Origin: an uncultured Acidobacteriota bacterium
Lineage (GTDB): Bacteria; Acidobacteriota; UBA6911; RPQK01; CBDAPI01
Assembly: GCA_964569605.1 (NCBI GenBank)
Contig: CAZMUJ010000099.1
Coordinates: 6,072 to 70,071, forward strand
DNA: 64,000 nucleotides
Direction of reading: 5' to 3'
The position numbers and the translations under genes are program-made. Below the pieces are notes generated by a model. That model worked only from the letters and a program-made list of their open reading frames with translations, was not told the origin of the DNA and searched no databases. Shown here piece by piece: positions 41,306 through 58,199 of this stretch. Position 1 is the first letter of the stretch, and each line of letters begins with the position of its first letter.

Positions 41306-42096
41306 ATCGGGCACTCCTTGAGGGCAGGGACATTACAGTCCAGTTTGGTCAGGGCTCAAATGCGTTTGAAGCAGTAAAGTCTGCATCTATGTACATTAAC
41401 TCAGGTGAAATTGTCGGAATAGTGGGGGAAAGTGGCAGTGGCAAGACAACTTTAGCCCGTGTTTTAGTGGGGCTCCAGCCTATCAGAGTGGGGGCGGTGT
41501 CACTGGAAGAGACTCTAGTTCTGAGTTCTAATTCAAAAAAGGAAATTCCAAAAAATGAGCGCTGGAAAATACAGATGGTTTTCCAGGATCCTTATTCCTC
41601 ACTCAATCCCCGGATACAGGCTTGGAAAACAGTGGCAGAAGTCTTTCAGGTCTGGAAAAAACTTTCGCCAAAACAAGGGAAGAAAGCAGCATTCGATCTG
41701 TTGCAATCGATTGGCATAACAGCCTCTCAAGCCAAGCGGTATCCAAGATCATTGTCAGGTGGTCAGCGTCAGCGGGTCAGCATTGCTCGTGCTCTTGCCC
41801 CAGGACCCAAAGTTCTTATAGCGGATGAACCGACTTCTTCCATCGACCAGTCTGCACAGGCTCAGTTAATAAATCTTTTAAATCGGCTTCAATCCGAACG
41901 GGATCTTGCGATCTTGTTTATTTCGCACGATTTGGCCCTTGTACGCTATATAACATCCCGTGTATATGTAATGAAGCAAGGATGTATCGTAGAGGAAGGG
42001 AACACCAAGACTGTTTTGCATCGCCCAAAACATCCTTATACAAAACTTCTGTTAGAATCGCTTCCTGGTAAAGTACATCAACAGTCATCCTCCTAA
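41302..42096 (+). CDS. ABC transporter ATP-binding protein (DppF-like)
   Basis: GESGSGKT, FQDPYSSLNP, LSGGQRQR, ADEPTSSID, HPYT. Confidence 0.92.
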   Translation: MNRALLEGRDITVQFGQGSNAFEAVKSASMYINSGEIVGIVGESGSGKTTLARVLVGLQPIRVGAVSLEETLVLSSNSKKEIPKNERWKIQMVFQDPYSSLNPRIQAWKTVAEVFQVWKKLSPKQGKKAAFDLLQSIGITASQAKRYPRSLSGGQRQRVSIARALAPGPKVLIADEPTSSIDQSAQAQLINLLNRLQSERDLAILFISHDLALVRYITSRVYVMKQGCIVEEGNTKTVLHRPKHPYTKLLLESLPGKVHQQSSS

Positions 42097-42480
42097 AAAA
42101 TTATTATGTTGTGGAAGAAACTGGACTCTAATAAAGGTTTTCCAGAAAACCGTCATTGTTTGTTTTCAGCGGGATGTTGTTTGAAACCCCTCCAAGTACA
42201 GCTTCTTGGCTAGGATCTGAGGGTTTTTTCTAAGAGTGCCTCAAAATAACAGATATCTCTTATTGTTGATGCCAATTATTTTTTGTTCAGTTCCAACTAA
42301 AAAACGGGGTGCTCCTATGTATCAAGTCGGTGAATGCTGATGACCCTAGGGATTGTAGCAATAGAGGCCATCTTGGGGGAGTGGATCCCGCAGTAAAATT
42401 GTCGAGACGGCTTTCCAAGTCTGAAAAGGAAGTTTTCTATTAACAAGATGAGTTTGAGATTAATTTAATAACATTAAAGC

Positions 42481-44625
42481 ATGTTGAGAACTAGCAAACT
42501 GATAGTCAGAAAAAATAGCCGCCTGAGAAGGATATTTTGTCTTTTTTTGGTGGTCTATCTAAGTACTTCTTTGCCAGTAAATGCGTATATCGGACCCGGG
42601 GCAGGCGTGGCCTTTGTTTCCTCTTTTCTGGTTGTAATTGTTACTTTTTTACTAGCTTTTTTAACGATTGTGACTTGGCCACTTCGTTGGATGATTCACA
42701 AACTTCGCGGACGAATAGCTTTGGGGAAAAGTCGAGTCCGGCGAGTAGTAATTTTGGGACTAGATGGTCAGGATCCTCAACTTACCGAAAAATTTCTGGA
42801 AGAAGGGGACTTGCCGAATTTTTCTCGACTTCGTAGAGATGGATCATATACTCGCCTTCAGACTTCGTTACCCGCTGAATCACCTGTAGCTTGGGCAAGC
42901 TTTCAAACCGGTTGCAATCCTGGTAAGCATCGAGTTTTTGACTTTCTTGTTCCCAACCGCAAGTCTTATTTGCCCGAACTTTGCTCAGCACGGGTTGAAC
43001 CCCCTAGGCGGAGTCTAAAGATTGGATCTTACAGGATACCTTTGAGCAAACCCCTAATTAAGTCCGAACGTAGGAGCCAGTCTTTTTGGAAAATATTGGG
43101 TGATTCTGGGATATTCAGTAACATAATTCGTGTTCCAACTAGCTTTCCTCCAGAAAAGTTTCGGGGAGTGTTGCTTTCGGCGATGTCTGTGCCAGACCTT
43201 CGGGGAACTCAGGGAACGTTTTCCTACTATAGCAGTGATCCCAGAGAGGTAGAGACATTTACGGGAGGAGAACGGATTTTGGTGAAAGGAAATAAAGGTT
43301 TGTTTAAAACCTTTATTCTTGGTCCAGAGAATCCGATTAGAAAGCCGGTAAGGACGATGAAACTTTCGTTACAGATTAAGATAGGTTTGAACGATTGCGA
43401 TGCTTGTTTAAGGATAGGGAAAAAGGAGTACAAGCTCTTAACTAGAGAATATAGCGAGTGGATTCCACTCAAATTCCGAGCTGGTCTAGGCATCAATGTG
43501 CATGGCATGTGTCGGTTTCTTCTCCTAGAAACTTCACCGCATTTGAAGCTCTACATGGGTCCTATCAATATTGCTCCGGATCGACCAGTTTTGCCGATAT
43601 CCCATCCTGCAACCTACTCCATGTATCTTTCGAAAACACAGGGAAAGTTTTGCACTTTGGGACTTGCTGAAGATACTTGGGCTCTCAATGAAGGAGTTTT
43701 GGACGAAAAGGACTTTTTAAAGCAAGCATTTTTGGTCCACGAAGAGCGCAAAAAAATGTTTTTTGATGCCCTCGATCAGACAAGACAAGGATTGATAGTC
43801 TGTGTTTTCGATATCACCGATCGAATTCAACACATGTTTTGGCGTTATCTTGAGGAAGATCATCCTGCCAATACGGTGAAAGATACTAAGGAGCATAGAG
43901 ATGAAATTCGGAATCTGTATCGTAGGATGGACACGCTTCTTGGTCAGACATTGGAGAAAATCGATGATGAAACTTTAGTCATAGTAATGTCTGACCATGG
44001 TTTTAACTCCTTTCGTCGAGGGGTTAACCTCAATACTTGGTTGTATCAGAACGGTTATCTAACTATGAATAAATCCCCTCATGGGAAGGAATGGTTTCAT
44101 GATGTGGACTGGGAAAAAACCAGAGCTTACGCGGTAGGCCTGGGAGGTATTTACTTGAATTTAGCAGGGAGAGAGAGTCAGGGAGTAGTTCCGAGTTGCG
44201 ACACACAAAAGTTGAAAAAAGAGCTTTGTTCCAAGCTGAAAGGCCTGAGGGATGATCAGACAGGAGAATTGGCAATCAGAGAAGTTTATGATACGCATAA
44301 AGTTTATTCTGGTCCGTACGTGGCTGATGGCCCAGATCTAGTAGTGGGTTTCAGTACAGGTTACCGTGCATCTTGGCTTTCTGTGACTGGTGGTGTCACA
44401 GATCAAGTTCTCGAAAACAACCTGAAAAGTTGGAGCGGGGATCACTGCATTAATCCCCCGGAAGTTCCGGGAATTCTTTTCTGCAATTCCAAAATTGATC
44501 GAACTCACATCGAAATCACGGACATAGCACCCACGGTTTTGGATCTCTTTGGAGTTCCCATCCCAAAGTGGATGGACGGCAATCCATTCCTTTGTAACCG
44601 AAAAACGGAGAACGACGAGAATTGA
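42481..44625 (+). CDS. AlkP-superfamily (type I phosphodiesterase/NPP-like) enzyme A, membrane anchored
   Basis: Signal peptide ending PVNA, then YIGPGAG + TM + basic patch. Motifs ILGLDG, LPAESPVAW..F.TG.NPGKH..FDF, MSDHGF, GPDLVVG, WSGDH. Confidence 0.88.
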   Translation: MLRTSKLIVRKNSRLRRIFCLFLVVYLSTSLPVNAYIGPGAGVAFVSSFLVVIVTFLLAFLTIVTWPLRWMIHKLRGRIALGKSRVRRVVILGLDGQDPQLTEKFLEEGDLPNFSRLRRDGSYTRLQTSLPAESPVAWASFQTGCNPGKHRVFDFLVPNRKSYLPELCSARVEPPRRSLKIGSYRIPLSKPLIKSERRSQSFWKILGDSGIFSNIIRVPTSFPPEKFRGVLLSAMSVPDLRGTQGTFSYYSSDPREVETFTGGERILVKGNKGLFKTFILGPENPIRKPVRTMKLSLQIKIGLNDCDACLRIGKKEYKLLTREYSEWIPLKFRAGLGINVHGMCRFLLLETSPHLKLYMGPINIAPDRPVLPISHPATYSMYLSKTQGKFCTLGLAEDTWALNEGVLDEKDFLKQAFLVHEERKKMFFDALDQTRQGLIVCVFDITDRIQHMFWRYLEEDHPANTVKDTKEHRDEIRNLYRRMDTLLGQTLEKIDDETLVIVMSDHGFNSFRRGVNLNTWLYQNGYLTMNKSPHGKEWFHDVDWEKTRAYAVGLGGIYLNLAGRESQGVVPSCDTQKLKKELCSKLKGLRDDQTGELAIREVYDTHKVYSGPYVADGPDLVVGFSTGYRASWLSVTGGVTDQVLENNLKSWSGDHCINPPEVPGILFCNSKIDRTHIEITDIAPTVLDLFGVPIPKWMDGNPFLCNRKTENDEN

Positions 44626-46604
44626 AAATGAACAAGTATATTGTGTGGGTTTTCGTCCTGATTGTTTTTACAGTTTGTTCGAGTCAGGCAACTCCTTCAA
44701 GACGAGTATTTATTTTGGGCATTGATGGCCTAGATCCAACGATTCTAGAGGAATTCATGGATGAGGAACTGCTGCCTAATTTCAAGGCTTTGGTCAAAGA
44801 GGGAGATATGGCGCGTTTGACCACAACCATGCCTCCCCTAAGTCCTGTGGCTTGGTCTACTTTCATTACAGGGTTGGATTCCTCTGGACACGGGATTTTC
44901 GATTTTATCCATAGAGACCCTGTCACTTATTTGCCAGAGTTCTCAATCGCTAGGTCAATTCCTTCAGATGTCTCTATCTCTCTTGGTTCTTGGGTTCTTC
45001 CTTTAAAGAGGGCATCCATTAAACAGTTAAGGAAAGGTACTTCTTTTTGGGAGATCCTTGAAAAGCAGGGTGTGCCAACCACTATATTTCGAATGCCGGT
45101 GAATTTTCCACCCAATTCTCCTGGATACTCTTTGTCTGGGATGGGTACTCCAGATCTCTTGGGTACTCAGGGTGGCACCTTTACTCTTTTTACCACTAGC
45201 CCTCCCCCTCAGGCATCTCGTATTAGTGGTGGCCGATTTTATAGGGTGGCAGTCATCAACAATAGGTTATATTTACGATTGGAAGGTCCAGATAACCCAT
45301 TTAGAAAAGAAACACTTTCTTCACTTTCAAAAACGAATGAAACCCATCATAGAGCTAAGCTGGGTCTTGATTTCAAGGTTTTCGTGGACCCTAAAAACCC
45401 ATCTGCGAAATTGGAAGTTCAGGGACAAGAATTTGTTCTCCAAGAGGGTGAGTGGAGTGATTGGATTTTATTAGAGTTTGAAGCGATTCCCTACCTGGTC
45501 TCGGTTAGCGCCACAGCTCGCTTTTATTTAAAACAAGTGCAGCCAGACTTTGAGCTTTACGTATCGCCACTTCAAATTAATCCAGAAGATCCAGCTATGC
45601 AAATCTCAACACCGAACAATTGGTCTAAGCAATTGTTCCAAAAACTGGGACATTTCTATACACAGGAGCTTCCAGAGGATACTAAAGCCTTTTCAGCAGG
45701 AGTTTTTTCTGGAAAAGAATTCTGGGAGCAATCACAATTTGTTTACGTTGAACAGATGAAGGCTCTTCGCCACCTGTTAGGGCGGTTTCAAGAAGGTCTT
45801 TTATTCTTTTATTTTTCTTCAGTCGATCAGGGTAGTCACATGCTTTGGAGGTATTTTGATCCAAAACACCCCGCTTACGTCAATGATCCGGGCCTACAGG
45901 ATTCTATCAAGACGTTGTATCGGGAAATGGATGAAGCTCTAGGACTTATACGTGAGAAACTAGAGAAAGAAGATACCTTGATAGTAATGTCCGATCATGG
46001 ATTTGCTCCTTTTTATTGGCAGGTGAATTTAAATTCATGGTTGTTGAAAAACGGTTACATTCACCTTAAGGACCCTAAAAAACACAATTTTCCCTTGTTT
46101 TCCAATGTGGACTGGTCAAGGACCTCTGCTTACTCTTTAGGCCTAAACGGTATCTACATAAATCTCAAAGGAAGGGAAGGCCAGGGAATTGTTTTGAAAG
46201 GTGAAGATTACAAAGGGCTTATGAGTCGGCTTGAAAGAGATCTTATGTCGATGACAGACCTGAGAAACGGCAACTTTCCAGTTAGCTTTGTCAGAAGAAA
46301 ACCTAGGCAATTACTGGAAAATCATGGTCCCGATTTAATTGTTGGATACAGAAGAGGATATAGAACTTCATGGGAGAGTCCTCTTGGAGGGTTCACTACA
46401 GAAGTTTTTGAGGATAACCATAATGCCTGGAGTGGTGACCATAGTATCGATTATCGTTTAGTCCCAGGTGTTTTGTTAAGTAATCGAAAAATCAAAATAT
46501 CCAATCCGGCACTGTATGACCTGACCGTTGCAGTTCTAGACGAGTTTGGCGTGGAAAAGCTCCCAGAAATGATTGGACAAGACTGCCTAGAAGACAAAGA
46601 TTAG
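44622..46604 (+). CDS. AlkP-superfamily (type I phosphodiesterase/NPP-like) enzyme B, exported paralog
   Basis: Single N-terminal signal peptide; ILGIDG, MPPLSPVAW..F.TG..HGIFDF, MSDHGF, GPDLIVG, WSGDH. Colinear with enzyme A along its whole length. Confidence 0.88.
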   Translation: MKMNKYIVWVFVLIVFTVCSSQATPSRRVFILGIDGLDPTILEEFMDEELLPNFKALVKEGDMARLTTTMPPLSPVAWSTFITGLDSSGHGIFDFIHRDPVTYLPEFSIARSIPSDVSISLGSWVLPLKRASIKQLRKGTSFWEILEKQGVPTTIFRMPVNFPPNSPGYSLSGMGTPDLLGTQGGTFTLFTTSPPPQASRISGGRFYRVAVINNRLYLRLEGPDNPFRKETLSSLSKTNETHHRAKLGLDFKVFVDPKNPSAKLEVQGQEFVLQEGEWSDWILLEFEAIPYLVSVSATARFYLKQVQPDFELYVSPLQINPEDPAMQISTPNNWSKQLFQKLGHFYTQELPEDTKAFSAGVFSGKEFWEQSQFVYVEQMKALRHLLGRFQEGLLFFYFSSVDQGSHMLWRYFDPKHPAYVNDPGLQDSIKTLYREMDEALGLIREKLEKEDTLIVMSDHGFAPFYWQVNLNSWLLKNGYIHLKDPKKHNFPLFSNVDWSRTSAYSLGLNGIYINLKGREGQGIVLKGEDYKGLMSRLERDLMSMTDLRNGNFPVSFVRRKPRQLLENHGPDLIVGYRRGYRTSWESPLGGFTTEVFEDNHNAWSGDHSIDYRLVPGVLLSNRKIKISNPALYDLTVAVLDEFGVEKLPEMIGQDCLEDKD

Positions 46605-46673
46605 ATCAGGTGGTATGCAACAGAGCTTGAGGAATTCAACTTGTTTGGCTAGTTATTCTCTGAGGAAGTAATT

Positions 46674-46865
46674 ATGTTTAGTCCCAAGATAAAAATCAAA
46701 AAACATTTGATGGAAAAAATCAAAAAGCATTCTCGTGTTTCTGGTTATTCTTCGGTTGAGGAGTTTGTGGAACACACCCTTGAAAAAGAGTTATCCAAAC
46801 TAGAAGGTGCTTCCTCTGAAGAGGAAATAAAAAAGAGACTCAAAGGGCTTGGGTATATTTCATAG
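46674..46865 (+). CDS. 63-aa ribbon-helix-helix (CopG-like) protein with C-terminal RLKGLGYI helix
   Basis: GAGGA ribosome-binding site upstream; PKIKIKKHLMEKIK (strand-helix), GYSSVEEFVEHTLEKEL (helix), EEEIKKRLKGLGYIS tail. Confidence 0.75.
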   Translation: MFSPKIKIKKHLMEKIKKHSRVSGYSSVEEFVEHTLEKELSKLEGASSEEEIKKRLKGLGYIS

Positions 46866-46935
46866 ATATTTTAGGTTGAGATTTTTTAGTTTTTCTTTAT
46901 CTAAGCCCCGAAAGTAGTTATTGACTGAGTGAAAC

Positions 46936-47763
46936 ATGATTAAACTCGCATACAGCATCAATGGATTTGTGGAGACTTTTCTTTCTTTTTTTCTATGGCC
47001 TTTTCAAAGTTTGGAGCCAGTTTGGGGGTTAGTATTTATTTCTTTCTTGACAGGTGTTTCCATTGTCTGGGGTTACAAGCTGGTGTCCAACCAATCAGAA
47101 ATTGTCAAGGCGCGAGATAAAATCAGAGGTAACTTAATAGGTATTAGGCTTTATCAGCATGACCTGCAGACAGTTCTCCGCCTACAACTGAAGACACTAA
47201 AATATACGCTACGTTATATGGGTTATTCTTTGTTGCCAATGTTGGTTTTGTCGACGCCGATGATGTTTCTTCTAATACAGCTAAATTATAACTTTAGTTT
47301 TCGCCCATTCCTTCCGGAAGAGGTCACTCTCCTTAAGGCTACCTTTAAAAATCCAGACCTTTTAGAGGAGGTAAATTTAGAAGTTCCTTCTTCAGTCGTG
47401 ATAGAAACACTTCCTGTAAACATTCCTAGTTTGGGTGAAATCGCTTGGAGGATTCGTCTAAAAGAAGCCGGACAGCATTTTCTGAAATTTCATGTAGGAA
47501 ACCAGATAGTCAACAAAGAACTCTATGTAGGAACTAAATGGCAGAAAGTCTCTCCCCTCAAATCTTCTATTTTTTCCGATGTCCTCTTTTATTACGGTGA
47601 AGAGCCTTTCCCACATTCTTTCCAGTTGTCAAAGATCGAAGTGATCTATCCTTCCCTTTCAATTCAGGTTTTTGGGTGGGAGCTTCACTGGCTTTGGGTT
47701 TTTTTCGTAGTTTCTTTGGGGACAGCTTTTGTTTGCAAACGACCTTTGGGTGTGGCGATATAA
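46936..47763 (+). CDS. DUF106/EMC3/TMCO1-like (Oxa1-superfamily) three-TM membrane protein with inserted soluble domain
   Basis: Amphipathic N-helix; TM1 ending ..YKLVSNQ; helical hairpin; TM2 LPMLVLSTPMMFLLIQL; ~120-aa beta-rich insert; TM3 WLWVFFVVSLGTAFVCKR. Pattern recognition only. Confidence 0.6.
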   Translation: MIKLAYSINGFVETFLSFFLWPFQSLEPVWGLVFISFLTGVSIVWGYKLVSNQSEIVKARDKIRGNLIGIRLYQHDLQTVLRLQLKTLKYTLRYMGYSLLPMLVLSTPMMFLLIQLNYNFSFRPFLPEEVTLLKATFKNPDLLEEVNLEVPSSVVIETLPVNIPSLGEIAWRIRLKEAGQHFLKFHVGNQIVNKELYVGTKWQKVSPLKSSIFSDVLFYYGEEPFPHSFQLSKIEVIYPSLSIQVFGWELHWLWVFFVVSLGTAFVCKRPLGVAI

Positions 47764-47784
47764 TTGTTTTGAAGGAGTGCTTTC

Positions 47785-48399
47785 TTGCTGTTGAAGTTCA
47801 AGGAGTTCTTGTTCAGGCATTGCCATGGGGATCCAGTTATCGTAGTGTCCGGATTGCCTCGTTCGGGAACGTCTATGGCAATGAGGATGTTGGAAGCTGG
47901 AGGGATTCCTCTTTTGACAGACTCTTTAAGAGTTCCTGACAAGGATAATCCTAAAGGATACTTTGAGATAGAAAAAGCCAAATATCTGGGTGTTAGAAAC
48001 GAGAAATCTTGGCTGAAAAAAGCTCGTGGTAAGGCTGTCAAAATTGTTTCACACCTCCTCCATGAACTGCCGGACAATAATACCTACCAGGTGCTTTTCA
48101 TGAACCGCGATTTAATAGAAGTGATCTATTCCCAAAACAAAATGCTAGTACGTAGGGGAGAATTTGTCAGAGGGAATGATGAGACAGTGAAGACCCTCTT
48201 TGAGAAGCACCTTAGCTCCCTAGAGCAATGGTTTAAACAAAAGCCAAATTTTAGTGTTTTGAATATGGATTATGCTGAGGTAATTGCAAACCCACAGCGA
48301 GAATCGTTAAAAATTGAAAGCTTTCTCTATCCATCCATTGACCCGGAAGCTATGGCTTCTGTGGTAGATCCAACCTTGTACCGAAATCGTGTAATCTAA
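47785..48399 (+). CDS. PAPS-dependent sulfotransferase (P-loop sulfotransferase fold)
   Basis: 5'-PSB loop VVSGLPRSGTS, NPKGYFE, KAVK, 3'-PB motif MNRDLIEVIYSQ; no signal peptide. Confidence 0.85.
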   Translation: MLLKFKEFLFRHCHGDPVIVVSGLPRSGTSMAMRMLEAGGIPLLTDSLRVPDKDNPKGYFEIEKAKYLGVRNEKSWLKKARGKAVKIVSHLLHELPDNNTYQVLFMNRDLIEVIYSQNKMLVRRGEFVRGNDETVKTLFEKHLSSLEQWFKQKPNFSVLNMDYAEVIANPQRESLKIESFLYPSIDPEAMASVVDPTLYRNRVI

Positions 48400-48594
48400 C
48401 ACTTTAATTTTAGGATTTGGTAATGGGATTTAGAACGTTTTTTTGAGAGAGTGCACTAGTTAACTCTTGATATATTGTGATGAAAGTCTGGTTATTGAGA
48501 GCTTAAGAGAACTGTTCCGTCTAAGCACTATCTTGTTGTCAATGATAAACTTCTATCAGCTATTTTTACAAAAAACAGGGAAGCTTACTGAATC

Positions 48595-50727
48595 TTGAAG
48601 CAGGTTCTTGTCAGGATGATGCTAAGGGGATCAAATATTTTGGTTAGAGACATGAGGTGGGGAATTGGTGTAGTAACTGTGATTCTGGGCATTTGCTCTC
48701 TTATGGCAGTAAAGCCTCAACTCAAACTTCCTTCGGAGGAAGTTTTTGGAATTCTGAGAGATGAATTGTCTGGAAAATTGGCGAGAGACCACGTTATTGA
48801 AATAACTCGCCACCACCGCATCTTGGGGTCTCGTGGATATTCTGATGCTGCACAATACATTTTGGGCACACTCCGAAAGTTTGGTTTCCAAGATAATCAG
48901 GCCTGGATTGAGAGTTTTCCCTCTGACGGAAAACTAATTTATCAGACCTGGCAGTCTCCATCAGGTTGGGACATTACATCGGCAGAACTGCGTATGATCG
49001 AACCAACTGATGAGCTACTGGTTAGATATCCCGAGATTGGGATGAGTGTAATGAGCTATTCAAATGCTGGTGAAGCACAAGCAGAGTTGGTAGACGTTGG
49101 GACTGGCACTCTTGATTCTGAGTACAGCGGAAAGGATGTTAAAGGGAAATTCGTTTTGGCAACGGGTAGTGGAAGTCGAGTCCATCGTCTTGCAGTTCTG
49201 AAGTATGGTGCTGTTGCAGTGGTTTGTTACCTTGATGACTTCCGGGCTTCCGAGCATCCAGACATGATTGGATCGAATGGAATTTGGCCTAGAACAGAGG
49301 AAATCCCAGATGTGAAATTTGGATTTAACATTAGTAACCGCCAGGGACGAGCGCTAAAAGATCTTCTCACAAAGAACCAAAAGGTTGTTTTGGATGGGAA
49401 AATAGAGGGGAGGGGTCTGGAACCCTGGAGAATGGATGTTGTCGTTGCATTAATATCTGGGACTGAGGATTCAGGACAGGAGCTTGTTTTTACTGCCCAT
49501 TTAGATAATCCCAAAGAATCAGCCAATGACAATGCCAGTGGTAGTGCAGCCCTGCTAGATATTGCCCGCACACTTAATGAACTGATCAATCTTGGAAAGC
49601 TTCCACGGCCTAAACGAACTATCCGTTTCCTATGGGTTCCTGAGCTGTATGGAACCATGGCATATCTTGATGCTCACCCAGAACTAAAGGGTCCAAGATT
49701 AGGGGGGAAGGTGTTGGCTAATCTCAACTTAGACATGGTTGGTCAGAATTTGGATCTTTTACAGACCAAGATGAACATTACATGGACACCGCCAACTATT
49801 AGTAGCGTGTTTGCGGACCTGACTTCTCTAGTTGCTGATCGGGTTGACACTCAAGGGATTTCCAATCCAGGGGGAAGTTCTAACAACTTTAATTACCGTA
49901 TAACTCCCTTCAGTGGCGGTAGCGATCATATCGTGTTCAACGATGGTGCCGTAAGTGTACCTGCTATGATGATTGGGCATTGGCCCGACTACACTAATCA
50001 AACGACTGAAGATACCCCTGACAAAGTTGACGCACTAGAATTAGAAAGAGCAGAATTGATAGCCACCTCAGTTTTCTGGACTCTGGCTACTCTTACGGCC
50101 GATCAAAGCCTGGATCTTACTAATCTTGTGGCAGCAAATGCTCAAGCAAGATTGATTCAAGATACCAGAAAGGCGGTTTCCTGGATTCTAGAATCTCCTA
50201 TCGAGATACTAGAAGTAACATATCATGATGCTAAGAGAGTTATTGACTTTGCCCTTGAAAGGGAAACGATGGCCCTAAAGAGTGTCCTGGATTTTGCTCC
50301 CTTTGAGCTGACCCTTCGTTTGGTTGATACGTGGAGACAGACTTTAGAAGGTCAAGCTGAACTACAAAGGCGCACCCTTCATGCTATTTTTTACCAGCGG
50401 GCTGGGCGTCTTCCCATACCAACCATCCTCAGTGAACCCGAAAGACAAGCTTCAAAAGTGATCCCCAGTCGATTGACCCGGGGGCCATTCGGAGAAGGGG
50501 TTCCAGAATTACTTTTGAGTGAGGACGATCGCTCCTGGTATTCATCAGTAAAGCTCACCGGGTTAAATTTCTATTTTTTGGTTAATCTTATCGACGGAAA
50601 GCGCTCTATACTTGAAATTCGAAACGCACTTTCATCTGCTACTCAGCCTGTGTCTTTGAGTATCATTAACCAATATGTTCACGACCTTGAAAAGGTTGGG
50701 TTGGTGGATCTCAAACGAATCGAGTAA
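48595..50727 (+). CDS. Exported M28-family peptidase-like protein with PA domain (DUF4910-like)
   Basis: AHLDNP..SANDNASG, RTIRFLWVPE, NLDMVG, GGSDH; PA domain (VDVGTG...DVKGKFVLA). Confidence 0.8.
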   Translation: MKQVLVRMMLRGSNILVRDMRWGIGVVTVILGICSLMAVKPQLKLPSEEVFGILRDELSGKLARDHVIEITRHHRILGSRGYSDAAQYILGTLRKFGFQDNQAWIESFPSDGKLIYQTWQSPSGWDITSAELRMIEPTDELLVRYPEIGMSVMSYSNAGEAQAELVDVGTGTLDSEYSGKDVKGKFVLATGSGSRVHRLAVLKYGAVAVVCYLDDFRASEHPDMIGSNGIWPRTEEIPDVKFGFNISNRQGRALKDLLTKNQKVVLDGKIEGRGLEPWRMDVVVALISGTEDSGQELVFTAHLDNPKESANDNASGSAALLDIARTLNELINLGKLPRPKRTIRFLWVPELYGTMAYLDAHPELKGPRLGGKVLANLNLDMVGQNLDLLQTKMNITWTPPTISSVFADLTSLVADRVDTQGISNPGGSSNNFNYRITPFSGGSDHIVFNDGAVSVPAMMIGHWPDYTNQTTEDTPDKVDALELERAELIATSVFWTLATLTADQSLDLTNLVAANAQARLIQDTRKAVSWILESPIEILEVTYHDAKRVIDFALERETMALKSVLDFAPFELTLRLVDTWRQTLEGQAELQRRTLHAIFYQRAGRLPIPTILSEPERQASKVIPSRLTRGPFGEGVPELLLSEDDRSWYSSVKLTGLNFYFLVNLIDGKRSILEIRNALSSATQPVSLSIINQYVHDLEKVGLVDLKRIE

Positions 50728-50732: not shown

Positions 50733-51713
50733 TTGAAATTTTTCTGGTTTTCTTGCAGCTTTTCTTCTGGAATGGTCCAAATACTGGGGAAAAAGGTTCG
50801 AGCAAGCTTTTTTTTCCTAGTTTTTGCAATGGTTTCCATGATTGGAAACACGTTAGTAGTGTCGGAAACACAGGCAGAAAAGGTCACAATCTTTTTTACA
50901 GGTTTGGTTCGGGGAAACTACGGTCCCTGTGGTTGTAGTACTGTTCCTTCTGGAGGGTTCGCAAAACGATCCGCCTATGCTTCCAACTATATACAGAAGA
51001 GCAAGTCACAGGTCCTTCATGTAGATCTGGGTGGGATATTGCTTCCGCGAGGACCAAATGCTGGCTACGTGAATCCGGAAATTTTGAACGCGATTCGAGA
51101 TTTACCTGTGAAGGTTGTGAATCTCTCACCTTCGGATCTATTTCTATGGGATCAAATTGCATCGTCGGATCTTAATGGGCACTTTATTTCTACTAATCTG
51201 TCTCCTTTAGACTCTGATCGACGCATCCCCGAGCGTTTCAGGATTGTGAAAGTTGAGTTAGAAAGTATCAATATTGACATTGGCTTTCTCGGGATTAGTG
51301 ATCCAGAAAAGGTCAAGCCTAACTCTGGTTTTATAGGTGAGGATCCAGTCCTTGCCGTGTCTAGGATTATAGACACAGTTTTAAAGGAAGCGGATTTTCT
51401 AATAGTTTTGGCAGATATTCCCCAGCAGTCAACAGTAACAACTTTTGAGAAGCTAGCCTGGAATCATTCTGAAATTATTGCATTTCTTACCACTGAAGAG
51501 GGCTACCGCCTACACGAACCTAGGATTATAAACAACGCTGTTTTATTATCCAGTGTCGAGCGGGGTCGCTATCTTGGGCAATTGGAACTGTTAATCGACA
51601 AGATGGGTAGAGTTCAGGAGTTTATCCCGGAATTCATCCAAATGTCTGATGAATTGGAAGAAGATCCACACTTCCTAAAAATTCAAAAAACATTGGCTCC
51701 CTACTTACCTTGA
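50733..51713 (+). CDS. UshA/5'-nucleotidase-like N-terminal-domain protein with PCGC motif
   Basis: Hydrophobic leader; FFTG.VRGNYGPCGC, GGFAKR, HVDLGG, FISTNL, IGFLGI, GRYLGQLEL. Start uncertain. Confidence 0.7.
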   Translation: MKFFWFSCSFSSGMVQILGKKVRASFFFLVFAMVSMIGNTLVVSETQAEKVTIFFTGLVRGNYGPCGCSTVPSGGFAKRSAYASNYIQKSKSQVLHVDLGGILLPRGPNAGYVNPEILNAIRDLPVKVVNLSPSDLFLWDQIASSDLNGHFISTNLSPLDSDRRIPERFRIVKVELESINIDIGFLGISDPEKVKPNSGFIGEDPVLAVSRIIDTVLKEADFLIVLADIPQQSTVTTFEKLAWNHSEIIAFLTTEEGYRLHEPRIINNAVLLSSVERGRYLGQLELLIDKMGRVQEFIPEFIQMSDELEEDPHFLKIQKTLAPYLP

Positions 51714-55266: not shown

Positions 55267-55716
55267 GTGAAAGGTCTGCAAAAGTATCCTCGTTTTCTCG
55301 AGGGTCTGTATTCCGTTACTAAACATTGTTTACAACCTTTTCGACCTTGGCTTAAAACGGGAGGCTGGGTGGAATCTTTTTTGATTCGTGCAGAAAAACT
55401 TAGTAAAGGAATTGTGTTCGATTGTCAGATGTGTGGTCAGTGTGTGTTGCATTTTACAGGGATGACCTGCCCTATGACTTGTCCCAAAAATTTACGAAAC
55501 GGTCCCTGTGGGGGAGTGCGGGAAAACGGCCATTGCGAAATTATTCCAGACATGCCTTGTGTATGGGTCCAAGCCTGGGAGAGGTCAGGGAAAATGCCAA
55601 TCTACGGTTCGGAGATTCTCAAGGTTTTGCCTCCACTAAATCGTCAACTAGAAGGGACTTCGGCGTGGATAAATGACTTTACGGATAAGGTCAAGCCACC
55701 ACCCGGATGGGAATAA
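55267..55716 (+). CDS. MTHFR_C / MetV-like Cys-rich methylene-THF reductase partner
   Basis: DCQMCGQC.L..TGMTCPMTCPKNLRNGPCGG....CE...DMPCVW; overlaps the start of metF. Confidence 0.85.
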   Translation: MKGLQKYPRFLEGLYSVTKHCLQPFRPWLKTGGWVESFLIRAEKLSKGIVFDCQMCGQCVLHFTGMTCPMTCPKNLRNGPCGGVRENGHCEIIPDMPCVWVQAWERSGKMPIYGSEILKVLPPLNRQLEGTSAWINDFTDKVKPPPGWE

Positions 55717-56684
55717 TGGGTCAGAGAAAAATCCAATCCGGCTCTCGACTCGAGCACGTATTACAATCGGGTCGTTTTGCTGTTACAGCCGAATTGAATC
55801 CTCCTGACACTGCGGATCCAAATGAAGTCTATGATCGGGCCTTGGTTTTGGCCTCTGTTTGTGACGCTATAAACGCGACGGATGCGTCGGGTGCACATGT
55901 ACACATGTCCAGTGTAGGAGTTTGTTCCTTGTTAAAGAGCGCAGGCTATGAGTCTGTATTACAGGTCTCTTGCCGGGATAGAAATCGAATAGCAATTCAG
56001 GGGGATCTTCTGGGTGCTGCAGCTTTGGGTATTAGAAATGTACTCTGTTTGACGGGTGACGGTGTTCAGGTGGGTGACCACCCCGAGGCTAAGCCAGTTT
56101 TTGATTTTGATTCGATGACTCTACTCAGGACTGCTCAAATTTTGCGAGACGAGTCAAGGTTTTTGAGCGGTCGAAAGTTAGAAAGTCCCCCCAAGTTATT
56201 TTTAGGGGCTGCCGCCAATCCTTTCGTTCCCCCCCTAGATTTTCGACCCCTTAGGTTAAAGAAAAAAATAGAGGCAGGGGCCGATTTTATTCAGACTCAG
56301 TACTGTTTCGATGTTCCTCTCTTTGAGGCTTTTATGGAGAGGGTTCGAGACCTTGGACTCCATGAAGAAGTTTTTATTTTGGTAGGTGTCGGGCCCTTAC
56401 GGTCTGCTAAGGCTGCTGAGTGGATTAGAGCCAATGTTCCCGGTGTCAGAATCCCTGATTCTGTAATCCATCGGTTGAAATCAGTTCCGCCTGTAAAACA
56501 GATGGACGAAGGCCGGAAAATTTGTGTTGAAATTATTCAACAAGTTAGTAATGTTATTGGTGTTTCAGGTGTTCATGTCATGGCCTACCGTCAAGAAGAA
56601 CTGGTGGCAGAGATTGTCGAGGAAGCAGGGTTGCTGTCACGTCGCCAGCAACTGAGCAAGCAAGAATCTCCAGGACAAAAATAG
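55707..56684 (+). CDS. metF: 5,10-methylenetetrahydrofolate reductase
   Basis: TAELNPP, NATD, SCRDRNRIAIQGDLLGA, CLTGD, GAAANP, KKIEAGADFIQTQ. Confidence 0.93.
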   Translation: MGIMGQRKIQSGSRLEHVLQSGRFAVTAELNPPDTADPNEVYDRALVLASVCDAINATDASGAHVHMSSVGVCSLLKSAGYESVLQVSCRDRNRIAIQGDLLGAAALGIRNVLCLTGDGVQVGDHPEAKPVFDFDSMTLLRTAQILRDESRFLSGRKLESPPKLFLGAAANPFVPPLDFRPLRLKKKIEAGADFIQTQYCFDVPLFEAFMERVRDLGLHEEVFILVGVGPLRSAKAAEWIRANVPGVRIPDSVIHRLKSVPPVKQMDEGRKICVEIIQQVSNVIGVSGVHVMAYRQEELVAEIVEEAGLLSRRQQLSKQESPGQK

Positions 56685-56694
56685 AATGACGTTT

Positions 56695-57447
56695 TTAATA
56701 GGTGGCTCTCCCACCACTGACGTCATAACATTGTCCAGTTACGAAACTTGAATCATCTGAAGCCAGAAAGTGAATCACCGCAGCCACTTCTTCAGGGGTT
56801 CCCACTCTGCCGAGAGGAATTTTGCTCACCATGTAGTCAATGTGTTCCTGGCTACACTGGTCCAAGATTTGGGTCTGAATGACTGCGGGGGCAACACAAT
56901 TAACCCTCAAGTTGTCAGACACAACTTCTTTTGCTAGTGCCTTGGTAAGTCCGATGACAGCGGCTTTGGTTGTCGAATACGGAGCAGCAAGAGGGTTGCC
57001 CTCCTTTCCAGCAATAGAGGATACGTTGATGATTCGTCCTTCTTTGCGTTTTCTCATGTGAGGTACGACGCCACGACAACAAAAAAAGACGCCGTTAAGA
57101 TTAACCTCCACAATCCTCGTCCAGTCTTCGTCGGTCTGTTCCCACAAAGGGACACTTTTCCCAGCAATTCCAGCGTTATTGACCAGAATGTCGATTTGAC
57201 CAAATCGTTTTAGCGCCAGGGCAACCATTCTCTCAACATCTTTGCGGACGGAGACATCTGCACCAATAATGTGGAAGGTATGTCCTGCAGCGGACAATCT
57301 AGCGCCAGAATCTGAGGCAGCCTCGGGATCAATATCTACTATACATACCTTAGCCCCGTAATCGGCCAACCTATGCGCTGTAGCTGCACCAATCCCTGTG
57401 GCTGCTCCTGTTACAATAGCTACTCGTCCATCTAAGCGAAAACTCAT
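56695..57447 (-). CDS. Short-chain dehydrogenase/reductase (FabG-like)
   Basis: TGAATGIG, LVNNAG, NVSS, YSTTK, NCVAP, GQCYDVSGG. Confidence 0.92.
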   Translation of the reverse strand: MSFRLDGRVAIVTGAATGIGAATAHRLADYGAKVCIVDIDPEAASDSGARLSAAGHTFHIIGADVSVRKDVERMVALALKRFGQIDILVNNAGIAGKSVPLWEQTDEDWTRIVEVNLNGVFFCCRGVVPHMRKRKEGRIINVSSIAGKEGNPLAAPYSTTKAAVIGLTKALAKEVVSDNLRVNCVAPAVIQTQILDQCSQEHIDYMVSKIPLGRVGTPEEVAAVIHFLASDDSSFVTGQCYDVSGGRATY

Positions 57448-57813
57448 TTTTTACCCCTTTTCTCACATATATCAAAAGGCTGATCTTGTCTTTCAGTTTG
57501 TATAGCAATGGAAAGTCAATCAGAGTAATTGAAGATAACATTGCTATAAACTATAAGATTAACAAAAAATATGAATTGGATATATAAGTTGTGTCTTTGG
57601 TTTAAGAGCACTACATCTTTGGAAATCAATTCTTAATTAATGTAATATGGTCGCTATTTTTGTATTAGAGTCAGGGTAAATACATACAAGCTGAATTCTT
57701 TCTGTTTGCGCAGGCATGTCAGTTGTCGAGCTAGGGTTCTCGCAAAAAGGGAATAAACAATGAGAGCGTTCCAATAGGCAACAGAAAATTTTCTGAGCAG
57801 GTCGTTTCTTCTA

Positions 57814-58164: not shown

Positions 58165-58199
58165 AAAAGGACTGAGGATATTTTGCCGAGGCTGGTCTA

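What the first reader, a model, noticed from the sequence alone, without database searches (positions are those of the whole stretch)
46936..47763. Bacterial DUF106/EMC3/TMCO1/Get1-like (Oxa1-superfamily) protein outside the yidC context, with an inserted ~120-aa exoplasmic domain
Seen: N-terminal amphipathic helix; TM1 ending YKLVSNQ; a ~45-aa helical hairpin (SEIVKARDKIR...LRLQLKTLKY); TM2 starting LPML..TP; a beta-rich insert; TM3 WLWVFFVVSL followed by basic KR. Known: three TMs, a cytosolic coiled coil after TM1 and a W-x-x-(W/F)-(Y/F)-x3-S-type TM3 describe archaeal Ylp1/DUF106 (e.g. MJ0480) and eukaryotic EMC3, TMCO1 and Get1. Bacteria normally use five-TM YidC. Inference: a pathway-dedicated insertase, or a hydrophilic-groove translocator/scramblase, serving the adjacent enzymes.
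Basis: partly seen in the sequence, partly recalled or inferred. Interest (0 to 1): 0.78.

Follow-up and report, generated by a model that had tools for sequence, protein, structure and literature searches.

The report
Bacterial three-helix Oxa1-like membrane protein
This bacterial gene encodes a small membrane protein related to the protein-inserting machine of archaea and the eukaryotic ER rather than to bacterial YidC, with an extra outward-facing domain, and it always travels with an unusual membrane anchor and sulfate/phosphate-ester enzymes, which points to an undescribed envelope machine.

Summary
An AlphaFold2 model (pLDDT 90) gives an N-terminal peripheral helix, TM1, a helical hairpin, TM2, a ~130-aa beta-sandwich and TM3.

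Homology to archaeal DUF106/Ylp1 (Oxa1 superfamily) is well supported:
- A family profile hits only MJ0480 in the whole PDB (E 5e-8).
- hhalign against a DUF106 alignment gives 96% probability, E 5e-9, end to end. Reversed and shuffled controls fail.
- The signature residues coincide.
- Foldseek did not recover Oxa1 structures, so the fold test is inconclusive.

The family is large (>3000 clusters at 50% identity), bacterial, and absent from the searched literature.

It is not a housekeeping insertase. It sits in a conserved cassette: PDE_A, PDE_B, a 63-aa protein, this gene, and often a sulfotransferase.

PDE_A always begins with a procoat-like anchor: signal peptide, A|Y[IVL]GPGAG, TM, WPxR. 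Elsewhere that anchor is a free ~80-aa protein, followed directly by a homologue of this gene in 45 of 53 loci, between a periplasmic arylsulfotransferase and a PAPS-type sulfotransferase. One locus fuses a periplasmic PDE to the homologue's N-terminus.

Best reading: a dedicated Oxa1-type partner or insertase of that anchor, forming a two-sided sulfo/phospho-ester enzyme platform. The mechanism is untested.

The parts
46936..47763 (+). DUF106L: 275-aa bacterial DUF106/Ylp1-like (Oxa1-superfamily) membrane protein with an inserted beta-sandwich
   Evidence: ORF. AF2 model with pLDDT 90.3. PDB-wide profile search finds only MJ0480. hhalign 96%, E 4.6e-9, with controls.
46939..47004 (+). H0: N-terminal peripheral/amphipathic helix (res 2-23), ending in the conserved Pro22
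   Evidence: Helix 2-23 in both AF2 models. P22 is 93% conserved and aligns with the invariant P19 of the archaeal set.
47017..47094 (+). H1/TM1 (res 28-53) with polar S36, T39 and the S51-N52-Q53 end motif
   Evidence: Helix 28-50. S36 92%, S51 98%, Q53 100% conserved. KLVSNQ aligns with the archaeal KLLVDQ, whose Q is invariant.
47095..47226 (+). H2/H3 basic helical hairpin (res 54-97), predicted cytoplasmic
   Evidence: Helices 53-72 and 77 onward. It carries 9 K/R (sequence). It aligns with the coiled-coil region of MJ0480.
47227..47295 (+). H4/TM2 (res 98-120) with the S-L-x-P-M...P motif and Q115
   Evidence: P101 97%, P108 92%, Q115 81% conserved. P101, M102 and P108 align with the invariant P102, M103 and P109 of the archaeal set.
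47296..47685 (+). Inserted ~130-aa Ig-like beta-sandwich (res 121-250), predicted periplasmic, with conserved VETP, WRIR and Y238
   Evidence: Strands in the AF2 model. Foldseek matches S-layer SbsC, filamin and intimin Ig-like domains (E ~2e-3, probability 1.0). It is an insertion relative to DUF106. It is absent from a 152-aa Nitrospinota homologue.
47686..47739 (+). H5/TM3 (res 251-268): H-W-L-x-x-F-F-x-x-S...K, followed by a short basic C-tail
   Evidence: Helix 252-268. W252 100%, F256 98%, S260 85% (+11% T), K268 74% (+16% R) conserved. These align with W176, Y180, S184 and R192, which are invariant in the archaeal set.
42481..44625 (+). PDE_A: 714-aa alkaline-phosphatase-superfamily enzyme (PF01663) carrying the N-terminal anchor
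   Evidence: Pfam E 1.6e-29. Colinear with PDE_B, small63 and DUF106L in 60 of 66 genome loci with enough flank.
42481..42744 (+). Anchor module of PDE_A (res 1-88): signal peptide, A35|Y36-IGPGAG (42586-42606), TM (res 43-66), W66-P-L-R, basic stretch
   Evidence: The motif is present in 63 of 63 PDE_A N-termini, with A (60) or G (3) at position -1. The same module occurs as free 70-98-aa proteins.
44622..46604 (+). PDE_B: 660-aa paralogue (PF01663) with an export signal (lipobox-like FTVC|S here)
   Evidence: Pfam E 3e-31. Orthologues carry lipoboxes or Tat RR signals. A PDE of this kind is fused to the N-terminus of a DUF106L homologue in L165.
46674..46865 (+). small63: 63-aa protein with a weakly RHH-like N-half and the invariant C-terminus ...EEEIKKRLKGLGYIS
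   Evidence: Directly upstream of DUF106L in 78 of 80 genome loci, with median identity 65% against 36% for DUF106L. RHH_1 matches are weak, in 10 of 15 members.
47785..48399 (+). 204-aa PAPS-type sulfotransferase, 21 nt downstream
   Evidence: PF13469 and PF00685, E ~2e-7. Present in 36 of 80 genome loci. A larger PF13469 sulfotransferase flanks the free-anchor cassettes in 27 of 30 loci.

Best explanation
The gene encodes a bacterial, archaeal-type (three-TM, DUF106/Ylp1-like) member of the Oxa1 insertase superfamily. Its TM2-TM3 loop has been replaced by a periplasmic Ig-like beta-sandwich. It is not a general insertase. It is the dedicated membrane subunit of a conserved envelope module.

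Its specific partner is a single-pass anchor: signal peptide, then A|Y[IVL]GPGAG, TM, WPxR and a basic stretch. Here that anchor is fused to the N-terminus of the alkaline-phosphatase-type enzyme PDE_A. In other bacteria it is a free ~80-aa protein encoded immediately upstream.

Most likely mechanism (inferred): the Oxa1-type hydrophilic groove inserts the anchor's procoat-like hairpin, passing the short uncharged YxGPGAG loop across the membrane. It then stays paired with the anchor helix, as EMC3 does with EMC6, GET1 with GET2 and Ylp1 with MJ0606. The N-terminal/beta-sandwich side holds the exported enzyme (PDE_B here, an arylsulfotransferase elsewhere). The basic cytoplasmic hairpin faces the cytoplasmic components (the PDE_A domain, the 63-aa protein, the PAPS-type sulfotransferase). 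The result would be a two-sided sulfo-/phospho-ester enzyme platform.

Shown here: homology, architecture, gene linkage and fusions. Inferred: topology, insertion, stable pairing, and the chemistry of the pathway.
For: Homology:
- The only PDB hit of the family profile is MJ0480, E 5.4e-8.
- hhalign gives 96%, E 4.6e-9, end to end. Reversed and shuffled controls give <=0.5%.
- The reciprocal archaeal HMM hits this family in 52 of 53 hits among 851 neighbouring ORFs.
- The landmark residues of both families coincide: K48/K46, Q53/Q51, P101/P102, P108/P109, W252/W176, S260/S184, K268/R192.
- The order H0-H1-hairpin-H4-insert-H5 is the SecY/Oxa1 connectivity described in PMC8675477.

Dedication to a module:
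- PDE_A, PDE_B, small63 and DUF106L are colinear in 60 of 66 genome loci across Acidobacteriota, Verrucomicrobiota, Entotheonella and others.

Link to the anchor:
- 63 of 63 PDE_A proteins start with the anchor.
- Where the anchor is a free gene, a DUF106L homologue lies directly downstream in 45 of 53 metagenome loci. The same holds in Thiohalobacter, Steroidobacteraceae and Nitrospinota genomes.
- The anchor has the shape of a YidC-only substrate (M13 procoat): two hydrophobic segments, a ~7-residue translocated loop and a basic C-flank (comparison from established knowledge).

Link to the periplasmic enzyme:
- In L165 a signal-peptide-bearing PDE domain is fused to the N-terminus of a full DUF106L homologue, next to a free anchor.

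Precedent for partnership:
- Archaeal and eukaryotic three-TM Oxa1 proteins use the exposed face of H5 to bind a small TM partner (PMC8675477).
Against: - There is no functional data of any kind.
- Foldseek did not retrieve Ylp1, EMC3, GET1 or YidC with either the full model or the helical part. The best helical hit was E 0.69, to ABC-transporter TM domains. I could not inspect a 3D groove.
- Bacteria with this gene are expected to possess YidC, which should be able to insert such a hairpin. This is established knowledge and was not checked in these genomes. A dedicated insertase is therefore not obviously needed.
- The invariance of the translocated YxGPGAG tail and of the beta domain's WRIR and VETP motifs suggests more than a transient client relationship.
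- Some anchor cassettes lack a detectable DUF106L: 8 of 53 metagenome loci, plus L095. Two genome loci (L035, L087) have DUF106L and small63 without PDEs.
- PDE_A's catalytic domain is predicted to be cytoplasmic only by the positive-inside rule. Close homologues without the anchor are exported lipoproteins, so the two-sided picture is uncertain.
Confidence: 0.55

Rival explanations
1. Conduit rather than insertase. The Oxa1-type groove, with the anchor helix beside it, moves a small polar or amphipathic moiety across the inner membrane. This could be a sulfated or phosphorylated carrier lipid or phenolic compound. It could also be the anchor's own N-terminal Tyr tail. The movement would couple a cytoplasmic PAPS-dependent sulfotransferase to a periplasmic PAPS-independent transferase (ASST or PDE_B).
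For: - The recurrent cassette is ASST (periplasmic), anchor, DUF106L, PF13469 sulfotransferase: ASST upstream in 35 of 44 loci and sulfotransferase adjacent in 27 of 30.
- ASST and an exported PDE are interchangeable in that position (L117, L162, L171, L174, L165).
- PAPS-synthesis genes lie nearby in some loci and in the window: L004, L007, and 12472-14223.
- Insertases including YidC and the GET and EMC complexes scramble lipids through the same groove (PMC11047089, listed).
- The natural substrates of bacterial ASTs have not been identified (PMC13426309).
- A two-step sulfation (PAPS-dependent sulfotransferase, then a phenolic carrier, then an AST-type enzyme) is known from caprazamycin biosynthesis. 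This is my own knowledge and I did not read it here.
- The mature anchor begins with an invariant Tyr.
Against: - No carrier molecule is identified.
- Aminicenantes-type cassettes have no sulfotransferase within 8 kb.
- A scramblase would not need a strictly conserved protein partner or an Ig-like domain.
- Using a protein Tyr as a shuttle would be stoichiometric and has no precedent.
Confidence: 0.2
2. Pure scaffold. The Oxa1 fold has been co-opted as an inert membrane anchor and assembly platform. It tethers the periplasmic enzyme through the beta-sandwich and the cytoplasmic proteins through the hairpin. It has no insertion or translocation activity.
For: - Fusion of an exported PDE to the N-terminus of a homologue in L165.
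- A conserved beta-sandwich of the Ig-like kind, a fold commonly used for binding.
- High conservation of the hairpin and of the 63-aa neighbour with its invariant C-terminal tag.
- The tail after TM3 is very short, so there is no long basic C-terminal tail of the kind Oxa1 and some YidCs use to bind ribosomes (sequence; comparison from established knowledge).
Against: - The polar groove-lining residues shared with archaeal YidC are the most conserved positions of the family: S36, S51/N52/Q53, Q115, W252, S260. An inert anchor would not be expected to keep them.
- A 152-aa homologue with no beta domain keeps the association with the anchor and the sulfotransferase (L093).
Confidence: 0.17
3. 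A second, general-purpose membrane-protein insertase of these bacteria, analogous to YidC2 or SpoIIIJ paralogues, that merely happens to lie next to these enzymes.
For: Homology to a family whose characterised members are general insertases.
Against: - The neighbourhood is almost invariant across phyla and across two different cassette architectures.
- The phyletic distribution is patchy.
- The protein has no ribosome-binding tail.
- It is fused to a pathway enzyme in L165.
Confidence: 0.03
4. Not an Oxa1 relative at all. The three TM helices plus a helical hairpin would be a convergent arrangement, and the profile matches would reflect composition.
For: - Foldseek found no Oxa1-family structure.
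- The Pfam PF01956 model is not matched above threshold.
Against: - MJ0480 is the only one of 177,635 PDB sequences, which include thousands of membrane proteins, to be hit at E<=10.
- Reversed and shuffled templates score <=0.5% in hhalign.
- The alignment is collinear over the whole length and superimposes the invariant residues of both families.
Confidence: 0.05

Closest known systems
Archaeal YidC / Ylp1 (MJ0480, DUF106, Pfam PF01956; PDB 5C8J)
   Same: - About 145 aa of collinear core: peripheral N-terminal helix, TM1 ending K-L-x-x-x-Q, basic helical hairpin, TM2 with S-x-x-P-M...P, TM3 with W-x-x-x-(F/Y)-x-x-x-S...(K/R), and a short C-tail ending G-(V/I)-x.
- It is the only PDB hit of the family profile.
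- hhalign gives 96% probability.
   Different: - Bacterial rather than archaeal.
- The ~45-aa TM2-TM3 loop is replaced by a ~130-aa Ig-like beta-sandwich, which is smaller or absent in some relatives.
- Below Pfam's PF01956 threshold.
- Embedded in an enzyme cassette.
- Ylp1 is regarded as the general archaeal insertase and binds ribosomes (PMC5868721).
EMC3-EMC6, GET1-GET2, TMCO1-C20orf24 and Ylp1-MJ0606 heterodimers of the Oxa1 superfamily
   Same: A three-TM Oxa1 core that works with an obligatory small TM partner bound to the exposed face of the last helix (PMC8675477). Here DUF106L is genetically coupled to a small single-pass anchor, either fused to PDE_A or free.
   Different: - The anchor (signal peptide, YxGPGAG, one TM) has no detected similarity to EMC6 or GET2, which have two to three TMs.
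- The contact between the two proteins is inferred from gene linkage only.
- The eukaryotic complexes serve many clients. This one appears tied to one pathway.
Bacterial YidC (PF02096) inserting M13 procoat or Pf3 coat
   Same: Same superfamily and the same kind of proposed client: a hairpin of two hydrophobic segments with a very short translocated loop, followed by signal-peptidase cleavage (established knowledge of the YidC-only pathway).
   Different: - No sequence match to YidC in Pfam at E<=1 or in the PDB at E<=10.
- Three TMs instead of five, and no TM3/TM4 hairpin covering H5.
- The groove arginine is not strictly conserved: position 48 is R/K in 68% and G in 27% of members.
Two-step sulfation systems (PAPS-dependent sulfotransferase plus AST-type arylsulfotransferase, e.g. 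caprazamycin Cpz8/Cpz4) and periplasmic ASSTs
   Same: A PAPS-type sulfotransferase and an ASST-type enzyme are encoded together around the anchor-DUF106L pair in the sister cassette.
   Different: - In the known case both steps are cytoplasmic and use a polyketide carrier (my own knowledge, not read here).
- In this cassette the ASST-type gene sits where other variants have an exported PDE, and known bacterial ASTs are periplasmic (PMC13426309). A membrane step would therefore be needed.
- The window's own cassette has PDE_A and PDE_B instead of an ASST.

Membership tests
Oxa1 superfamily, DUF106/Ylp1 branch (PF01956) | Significant sequence-profile similarity to DUF106 proteins | tested here: met
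   - hmmsearch of the 77-member profile against the PDB finds only MJ0480, E 5.4e-8.
- hhalign against 15 PF01956-annotated archaeal proteins gives 96%, E 4.6e-9 over 186 columns. Reversed and shuffled controls give <=0.5%.
- Caveat: the single sequence gives no PF01956 hit, and members reach only E 0.026, below the gathering score.
Oxa1 superfamily, DUF106/Ylp1 branch (PF01956) | Connectivity H0, TM1, cytosolic helical hairpin, TM2, TM3 (three-TM core) | tested here: met
   AF2 secondary structure at pLDDT 90-96 is H2-23, H28-50, H53-72, H77-120, beta domain, H252-268. This matches the consensus elements in PMC8675477.
Oxa1 superfamily, DUF106/Ylp1 branch (PF01956) | N-out/C-in topology with the hairpin in the cytoplasm | tested here: inconclusive
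   This is prediction only. The hairpin has 9 K/R and the C-tail is KR. A natural fusion places a signal-peptide-bearing PDE domain on the N-terminus of a homologue (L165). There is no experimental topology.
Oxa1 superfamily, DUF106/Ylp1 branch (PF01956) | Lipid-exposed hydrophilic groove lined by conserved polar residues of TM1 and TM3, with a Trp at the interface | tested here: inconclusive
   At sequence level the expected residues are the most conserved ones: S36 92%, T39 59%, S51 98%, Q53 100%, Q115 81%, W252 100%, S260 85%.
Oxa1 superfamily, DUF106/Ylp1 branch (PF01956) | Structural similarity to Ylp1, EMC3, GET1 or YidC in a fold search | tested here: inconclusive
   Foldseek against the PDB with the full model returns only Ig-like domains. 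With the helical part (res 1-122, pLDDT 95.9) the best E is 0.69, and no Oxa1 member appears in the top 50. TM3 was missing from that query, and Foldseek is weak on short helical bundles.
Oxa1 superfamily, DUF106/Ylp1 branch (PF01956) | Insertase activity, with substrate or ribosome contact | not testable with these tools
   Needs biochemistry.
Bacterial YidC/Oxa1/Alb3 (PF02096, 60KD_IMP) | Five-TM core with a TM3/TM4 hairpin, and similarity to PF02096 | tested here: not met
   No PF02096 hit at E<=1 for the protein or at E<=10 for 16 relatives. No YidC chain among PDB hits at E<=10. The model has only three TM helices.
Bacterial YidC/Oxa1/Alb3 (PF02096, 60KD_IMP) | Strictly conserved positive charge in the groove | tested here: not met
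   The only candidate, position 48 near the cytoplasmic end of TM1, is R 36%, K 32%, G 27%.
Anti-phage defence systems (PADLOC) | Match to a known defence protein model | tested here: not met
   No hit for DUF106L, PDE_A, PDE_B, small63 or the sulfotransferase at E<=0.01.

The most novel reading that the evidence does not exclude
The anchor-DUF106L pair is the membrane step of a trans-envelope sulfuryl (or phosphoryl) relay. A cytoplasmic PAPS-dependent sulfotransferase loads a phenolic carrier. The carrier could be a small amphiphile or the invariant N-terminal tyrosine tail of the anchor itself. The Oxa1-type groove passes that carrier across the inner membrane. A periplasmic PAPS-independent enzyme (an arylsulfotransferase, or the AlkP-type PDE_B here) then uses it to modify envelope or external targets. 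This would be a non-insertase job for an Oxa1-fold protein. It would also explain how activated sulfate reaches the periplasm.
Probability: 0.12. Interest if true: 0.9.

Novelty: new variant of a known kind. Interest (0 to 1): 0.75.

Why it matters
The papers I read treat the three-TM DUF106/Ylp1/EMC3/GET1/TMCO1 branch of the Oxa1 superfamily as archaeal and eukaryotic, with bacteria using five-TM YidC (PMC5868721, PMC8887752, PMC8675477). This finding shows a large bacterial branch of the three-TM type. It has more than 3000 50%-identity clusters and is spread over Acidobacteriota, Verrucomicrobiota, Sumerlaeota, Entotheonella, Nitrospinota and Gammaproteobacteria.

This branch is not a general insertase. 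It is hard-wired to one small anchor protein and to sulfo-/phospho-ester enzymes on both faces of the membrane. That has three consequences:
- It offers a simple, genetically defined bacterial model of the Oxa1-core-plus-small-partner arrangement seen in the EMC, GET and TMCO1 complexes.
- It bears on the evolution of the superfamily: either ancient bacterial retention or transfer from archaea.
- It points to an undescribed envelope module that may explain what periplasmic arylsulfotransferases do. Their physiological role and natural substrates have not been identified (PMC13426309).

Tried and rejected
**Fold and family searches**
- Foldseek of the full model against the PDB found only Ig-like beta-sandwich matches.
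- Foldseek of a separately predicted helical part (res 1-122) found nothing significant. The top hits were ABC-transporter TM domains and coiled coils at E>=0.69. The fold search is therefore uninformative, not negative proof.
- Pfam and NCBIfam on the single protein gave no usable hit.

**Neighbouring proteins**
- PDB sequence searches for PDE_A and PDE_B found nothing beyond a marginal NPP match at E 0.007, so the substrate could not be inferred.
- I considered that a cytoplasmic nucleotide-pyrophosphatase-like PDE_A plus an antitoxin-like RHH protein might form a defence or toxin-antitoxin system. I dropped this. PADLOC gave no hits, and the cassette sits in the same position relative to the corrinoid-methyltransferase genes in the window and in a related Acidobacteriota contig, which fits a chromosomal gene set.
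- The fold of small63 remains uncertain. RHH_1 is only weakly matched, best E 0.0065, and there is no PDB hit worth naming.

**Other checks**
- The promoter and terminator scan of 42000-48700 gave nothing above the shuffled expectation. The operon call rests on spacing only: a 4-nt overlap, then gaps of 69, 70 and 21 nt.
- Apparent read-through fusions small63-DUF106L (L067) and PDE_B-small63 (L022) were examined. I did not use them as evidence. L067 looks like a frameshift, and L022 keeps a Shine-Dalgarno sequence and an ATG in front of small63.
- Literature searches for bacterial DUF106, Ylp1 or PF01956 proteins found no description of this family.
Full report
**1. The observation**

The window has an ATG ORF at 46936..47763 on the + strand (275 aa).

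AlphaFold2 on a 16-sequence alignment gives a confident model (mean pLDDT 90.3, pTM 0.80). The elements are:
- helix 2-23
- helix 28-50 (TM1)
- helices 53-72 and 77-120 (the hairpin running into TM2)
- a beta domain between about 121 and 250
- helix 252-268 (TM3)

A second model of residues 1-122, built on 77 sequences, reproduces the helices at pLDDT 95.9.

The insert is about 130 aa. Its closest PDB matches are Ig-like beta-sandwiches: S-layer SbsC domains, a filamin repeat and intimin D00-D0, at E ~2e-3 and probability 1.0.

The gene is conserved. A word-indexed search found 17 relatives. An exhaustive profile search found 3085 50%-identity clusters at E<=1e-3 and 1105 at E<=1e-30, and almost all of the 150 best listed are 270-280 aa long and matched end to end.

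**2. Is it an Oxa1-superfamily/DUF106 protein?**

The single sequence hits nothing useful in Pfam or NCBIfam. Four of 16 relatives give sub-threshold PF01956 matches, best E 0.026. JGI had named one relative 'DUF106 family'.

Profiles are decisive:
- The 16-member profile searched against all 177,635 distinct PDB sequences returns one hit at E<=10: MJ0480/Ylp1 (5c8j), E 1.5e-5. The 77-member profile again returns only MJ0480, at E 5.4e-8.
- I collected MJ0480 relatives, all annotated PF01956, aligned 15 of them and ran hhalign. The result was 89% probability and E 2.3e-6 with the shallow profile. With the deeper one it was 96% and E 4.6e-9, over 186 columns from residue 11 to 275 against 8-197 of 198. 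The beta domain appears as a single insertion in the TM2-TM3 loop.
- Reversed and ten column-shuffled templates give <=0.5% probability and E>=0.1.
- Reciprocally, the archaeal HMM searched against 851 ORFs from 81 loci hits this family in 52 of its 53 hits.

The residues that are invariant or nearly so in each family fall on each other:

| This family | Archaeal DUF106 set |
|---|---|
| P22 | P19 |
| K48 | K46 |
| Q53 | Q51 |
| P101, M102 | P102, M103 |
| P108 | P109 |
| W252 | W176 |
| F256 | Y180 |
| S260 | S184 |
| K268 | R192 |

The element order is H0, H1, H2/3 hairpin, H4, intervening element, H5. The order, the interface Trp and the polar H1/H5 positions are the features Lewis and Hegde describe for archaeal YidC (PMC8675477).

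There is no similarity to bacterial YidC in Pfam or the PDB.

The one test that did not come through is the fold search. Foldseek returned no Oxa1-family structure with either model. I treat that as inconclusive, because the helical query lacked TM3 and Foldseek discriminates short helical bundles poorly.

**3. Context in the window**

The gene sits in a tight, same-strand block:

| Gene | Coordinates | Annotation |
|---|---|---|
| PDE_A | 42481-44625 | PF01663 |
| PDE_B | 44622-46604 | PF01663; 4-nt overlap with PDE_A |
| small63 | 46674-46865 | 63-aa ORF |
| DUF106L | 46936-47763 | this finding |
| sulfotransferase | 47785-48399 | 204 aa, PAPS-type |

An M28 peptidase and a UshA-like protein follow. 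A scan for terminators and promoters inside the block gave nothing above chance.

Thirty kilobases upstream the window also encodes a bifunctional ATP-sulfurylase/APS-kinase at 12472-14223, so the organism can make PAPS.

The relatives with organism names are nearly all Acidobacteriota MAGs, with closest identity 57-59%. The window shares a downstream corrinoid-methyltransferase cluster with one of them.

**4. The cassette is conserved**

I examined 80 genome loci from Acidobacteriota (including Vicinamibacterales, Aminicenantes/Saccharicenans and Bryobacterales), Verrucomicrobiota, Sumerlaeota, Entotheonella and others.
- small63 lies directly upstream of DUF106L in 78 of them.
- PDE_A, PDE_B, small63 and DUF106L are colinear in 60 of the 66 loci with enough flank.
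- The small sulfotransferase is present in 36.

small63 is much better conserved than DUF106L, with median identity 65% against 36%. It has a weakly RHH-like N-half and an invariant C-terminus ...SEEEIKKRLKGLGYIS.

**5. The anchor**

Every PDE_A whose N-terminus is available (63 of 63) begins with the same sequence of elements:
- a signal peptide ending in A (60 cases) or G (3 cases)
- immediately after it, Y-[I/V/L]-G-P-G-A-G
- a ~23-residue hydrophobic helix with a conserved SS pair
- (T/S)-W-P-x-R and a strongly basic stretch
- the catalytic domain

This is the shape of a procoat-type hairpin: two hydrophobic segments, a ~7-residue uncharged translocated loop and a signal-peptidase site. 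The YidC-only pathway handles such substrates (established knowledge). By the positive-inside rule the PDE_A catalytic domain would stay in the cytoplasm.

PDE_B has export signals instead. These are lipoboxes in the close Acidobacteriota relatives and here (FTVC|S), and twin-arginine signals in Aminicenantes.

**6. The anchor also exists as a free gene, next to DUF106L**

A profile of the anchor retrieved many 70-98-aa proteins. Each consists of just the signal peptide, AY[VI]GPGAG, the TM, WPxR, a basic stretch and a short tail.

Lookups of seven anchor proteins gave these contexts:
- In a Nitrospinota MAG the corresponding protein is only 152 aa. It matches TM1-hairpin-TM2 and TM3 with no beta domain.
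- L094 proved to be a frameshifted copy of the PDE-type cassette, with DUF106L fragments present.
- L095 has no DUF106L.
- L098 has an unmatched 124-aa three-segment membrane protein in that position.

A metagenome scan with the free-anchor profile gave 474 confirmed loci, of which I analysed 80:
- DUF106L lies directly downstream of the anchor in 45 of 53 loci with >=900 bp of downstream sequence.
- An ASST lies directly upstream in 35 of 44.
- A sulfotransferase is adjacent in 27 of 30.

Variants replace the ASST with an exported lipoprotein PDE (L117, L162, L171, L174).

In L165 a signal-peptide-bearing PDE domain (residues 20-629) is fused to the N-terminus of a complete DUF106L (residues ~650-906), right after a free anchor. 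That fusion fits an N-out orientation of DUF106L and argues for physical association with the periplasmic enzyme.

**7. What it most likely does**

Four things are shown here:
- The protein is homologous to the archaeal-type Oxa1 insertase.
- It has that family's element order plus an inserted beta-sandwich.
- It is genetically locked to one small anchor, in two independent architectures (fused to an enzyme, or free).
- It is locked to a periplasmic ester-transfer enzyme (once by fusion) and usually to a PAPS-type sulfotransferase.

From these I infer that it is the dedicated Oxa1-type partner of the anchor. It would insert the anchor's hairpin through its groove and then remain paired with it. 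Three-TM Oxa1 proteins in archaea and the ER pair with EMC6, GET2 or MJ0606-type partners in this way (PMC8675477). The resulting platform would carry enzymes on both faces of the membrane. I put this at about 0.55.

The main rivals keep the same homology and linkage but change the activity:
- A conduit or scramblase for a sulfated or phosphorylated carrier. This is supported by the pairing of a PAPS-type sulfotransferase with an ASST-type enzyme around it, and by the report that lipid scrambling is a general feature of protein insertases (PMC11047089, title and abstract as listed).
- A pure scaffold.

A general housekeeping insertase and a non-homologous look-alike are both unlikely.

Three uncertainties remain:
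- The cytoplasmic location of PDE_A's domain rests on the positive-inside rule only, and close anchor-less homologues are exported.
- 8 of 53 free-anchor loci, and L095, lack a detectable DUF106L.
- The substrate of the pathway is unknown. PDE_A and PDE_B have no informative PDB relatives.

**8. Comparison with what is known, and novelty**

The papers I read place DUF106/Ylp1-type proteins in archaea and eukaryotes and give bacteria five-TM YidC (PMC5868721, PMC8887752, PMC8675477). Searches for bacterial DUF106, Ylp1 or PF01956 proteins found no description of this family. One automated JGI annotation had already called a member 'DUF106 family'.

I classify it as a new variant of a known kind. 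It is a member of the Oxa1 superfamily by homology, but it differs from described members in four ways:
- it is a bacterial branch
- it carries a periplasmic Ig-like insert
- it has a dedicated single-pass partner
- it has a fixed association with sulfo-/phospho-ester enzymes

The surrounding module (ASST or PDE, anchor, DUF106L, sulfotransferase) was not described in any paper my searches returned. It may bear on the unresolved physiological role of bacterial arylsulfotransferases (PMC13426309).

Noticed in passing
window 46674-46865; L010, L013, L014, L016, L017, L019 and others (cluster-3 ORFs just upstream of PDE_A); L023 798-1793: Unrelated proteins around the cassette share a C-terminal tag. 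small63 ends ...EEEIKKRLKGLGYIS. A ~820-aa membrane-anchored sulfatase-like protein directly upstream of PDE_A ends ...SQEELQRLKSLGYIQ in 21 of 22 loci. An ORF over the APS-kinase gene of L023/L007 ends ...EEEEIKQRLQALGYI. It may be a docking peptide for the PDE enzymes or for the DUF106L hairpin. PDE_A and PDE_B contain an internal look-alike (NLN(T/S)WL..NGY(L/I)).
   Followed up: partly
L090 5620-9202; L091 5661-9154; L096 3263-6833; L099-L178: A widespread four-gene cassette in Gammaproteobacteria and metagenomes: arylsulfotransferase (PF05935/PF14269), a free ~80-aa AY[VI]GPGAG anchor, a DUF106L homologue, and a PF13469 sulfotransferase. No paper returned by my searches describes it.
   Followed up: yes
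L093 6279-6737: A minimal 152-aa homologue in a Nitrospinota MAG has TM1, hairpin, TM2 and TM3 with no beta domain. It lies between a free anchor and a sulfotransferase. This shows the Ig-like insert is accessory.
   Followed up: partly
L165 5213-7933: A 906-aa natural fusion: signal peptide, PDE-type AlkP domain and a complete DUF106L homologue, directly after a free anchor gene.
   Followed up: partly
L022 5732-7933; L067 around 7761-8762: There are two apparent read-through fusions. PDE_B-small63 in Entotheonella DD2 has no stop codon but retains an AAGGAG-ATG in front of small63. small63-DUF106L in an Aminicenantes MAG looks like a frameshift in the GYIS codons. Both may be assembly errors.
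   Followed up: partly
window 12472-14223, with 14245-17499: A bifunctional ATP-sulfurylase/APS-kinase (PAPS synthase) is followed by nucleotide-sugar enzymes (GDP-mannose-4,6-dehydratase-like, UDP-glucose dehydrogenase, epimerase). This could supply the sulfotransferase and hints at a sulfated glycan.
   Followed up: no
window 50733-51713: This ORF matches NCBIfam 'UshA-like (seleno)protein' (NF041198, E 7e-23) over model positions 4-275 of 519. The ORF contains the sequence PCGC, which I read as a Cys-for-Sec version of the model's motif (inferred from the model name 'PCGU'). The ORF is shorter than the model.
   Followed up: no
window 48595-50727: A 710-aa membrane-anchored M28 peptidase with a PA-like region and a long C-terminal extension of unknown function lies immediately downstream of the cassette. 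It is not conserved next to the cassette in other loci.
   Followed up: no
window 55707-63942: A corrinoid-dependent methyltransferase cluster (MTHFR, URO-D/MtaA-like, pterin-binding, B12-binding, RACo activase). The same genes flank the cassette in a related Acidobacteriota contig (L001-L003), where they lie on the opposite strand.
   Followed up: no
window 25465-29683: A PSCyt1/PSCyt2/PSD1 (DUF1549/DUF1553) protein followed by a DUF1501 protein. This is the gene pair Pfam names after planctomycetes; its function is unknown.
   Followed up: no
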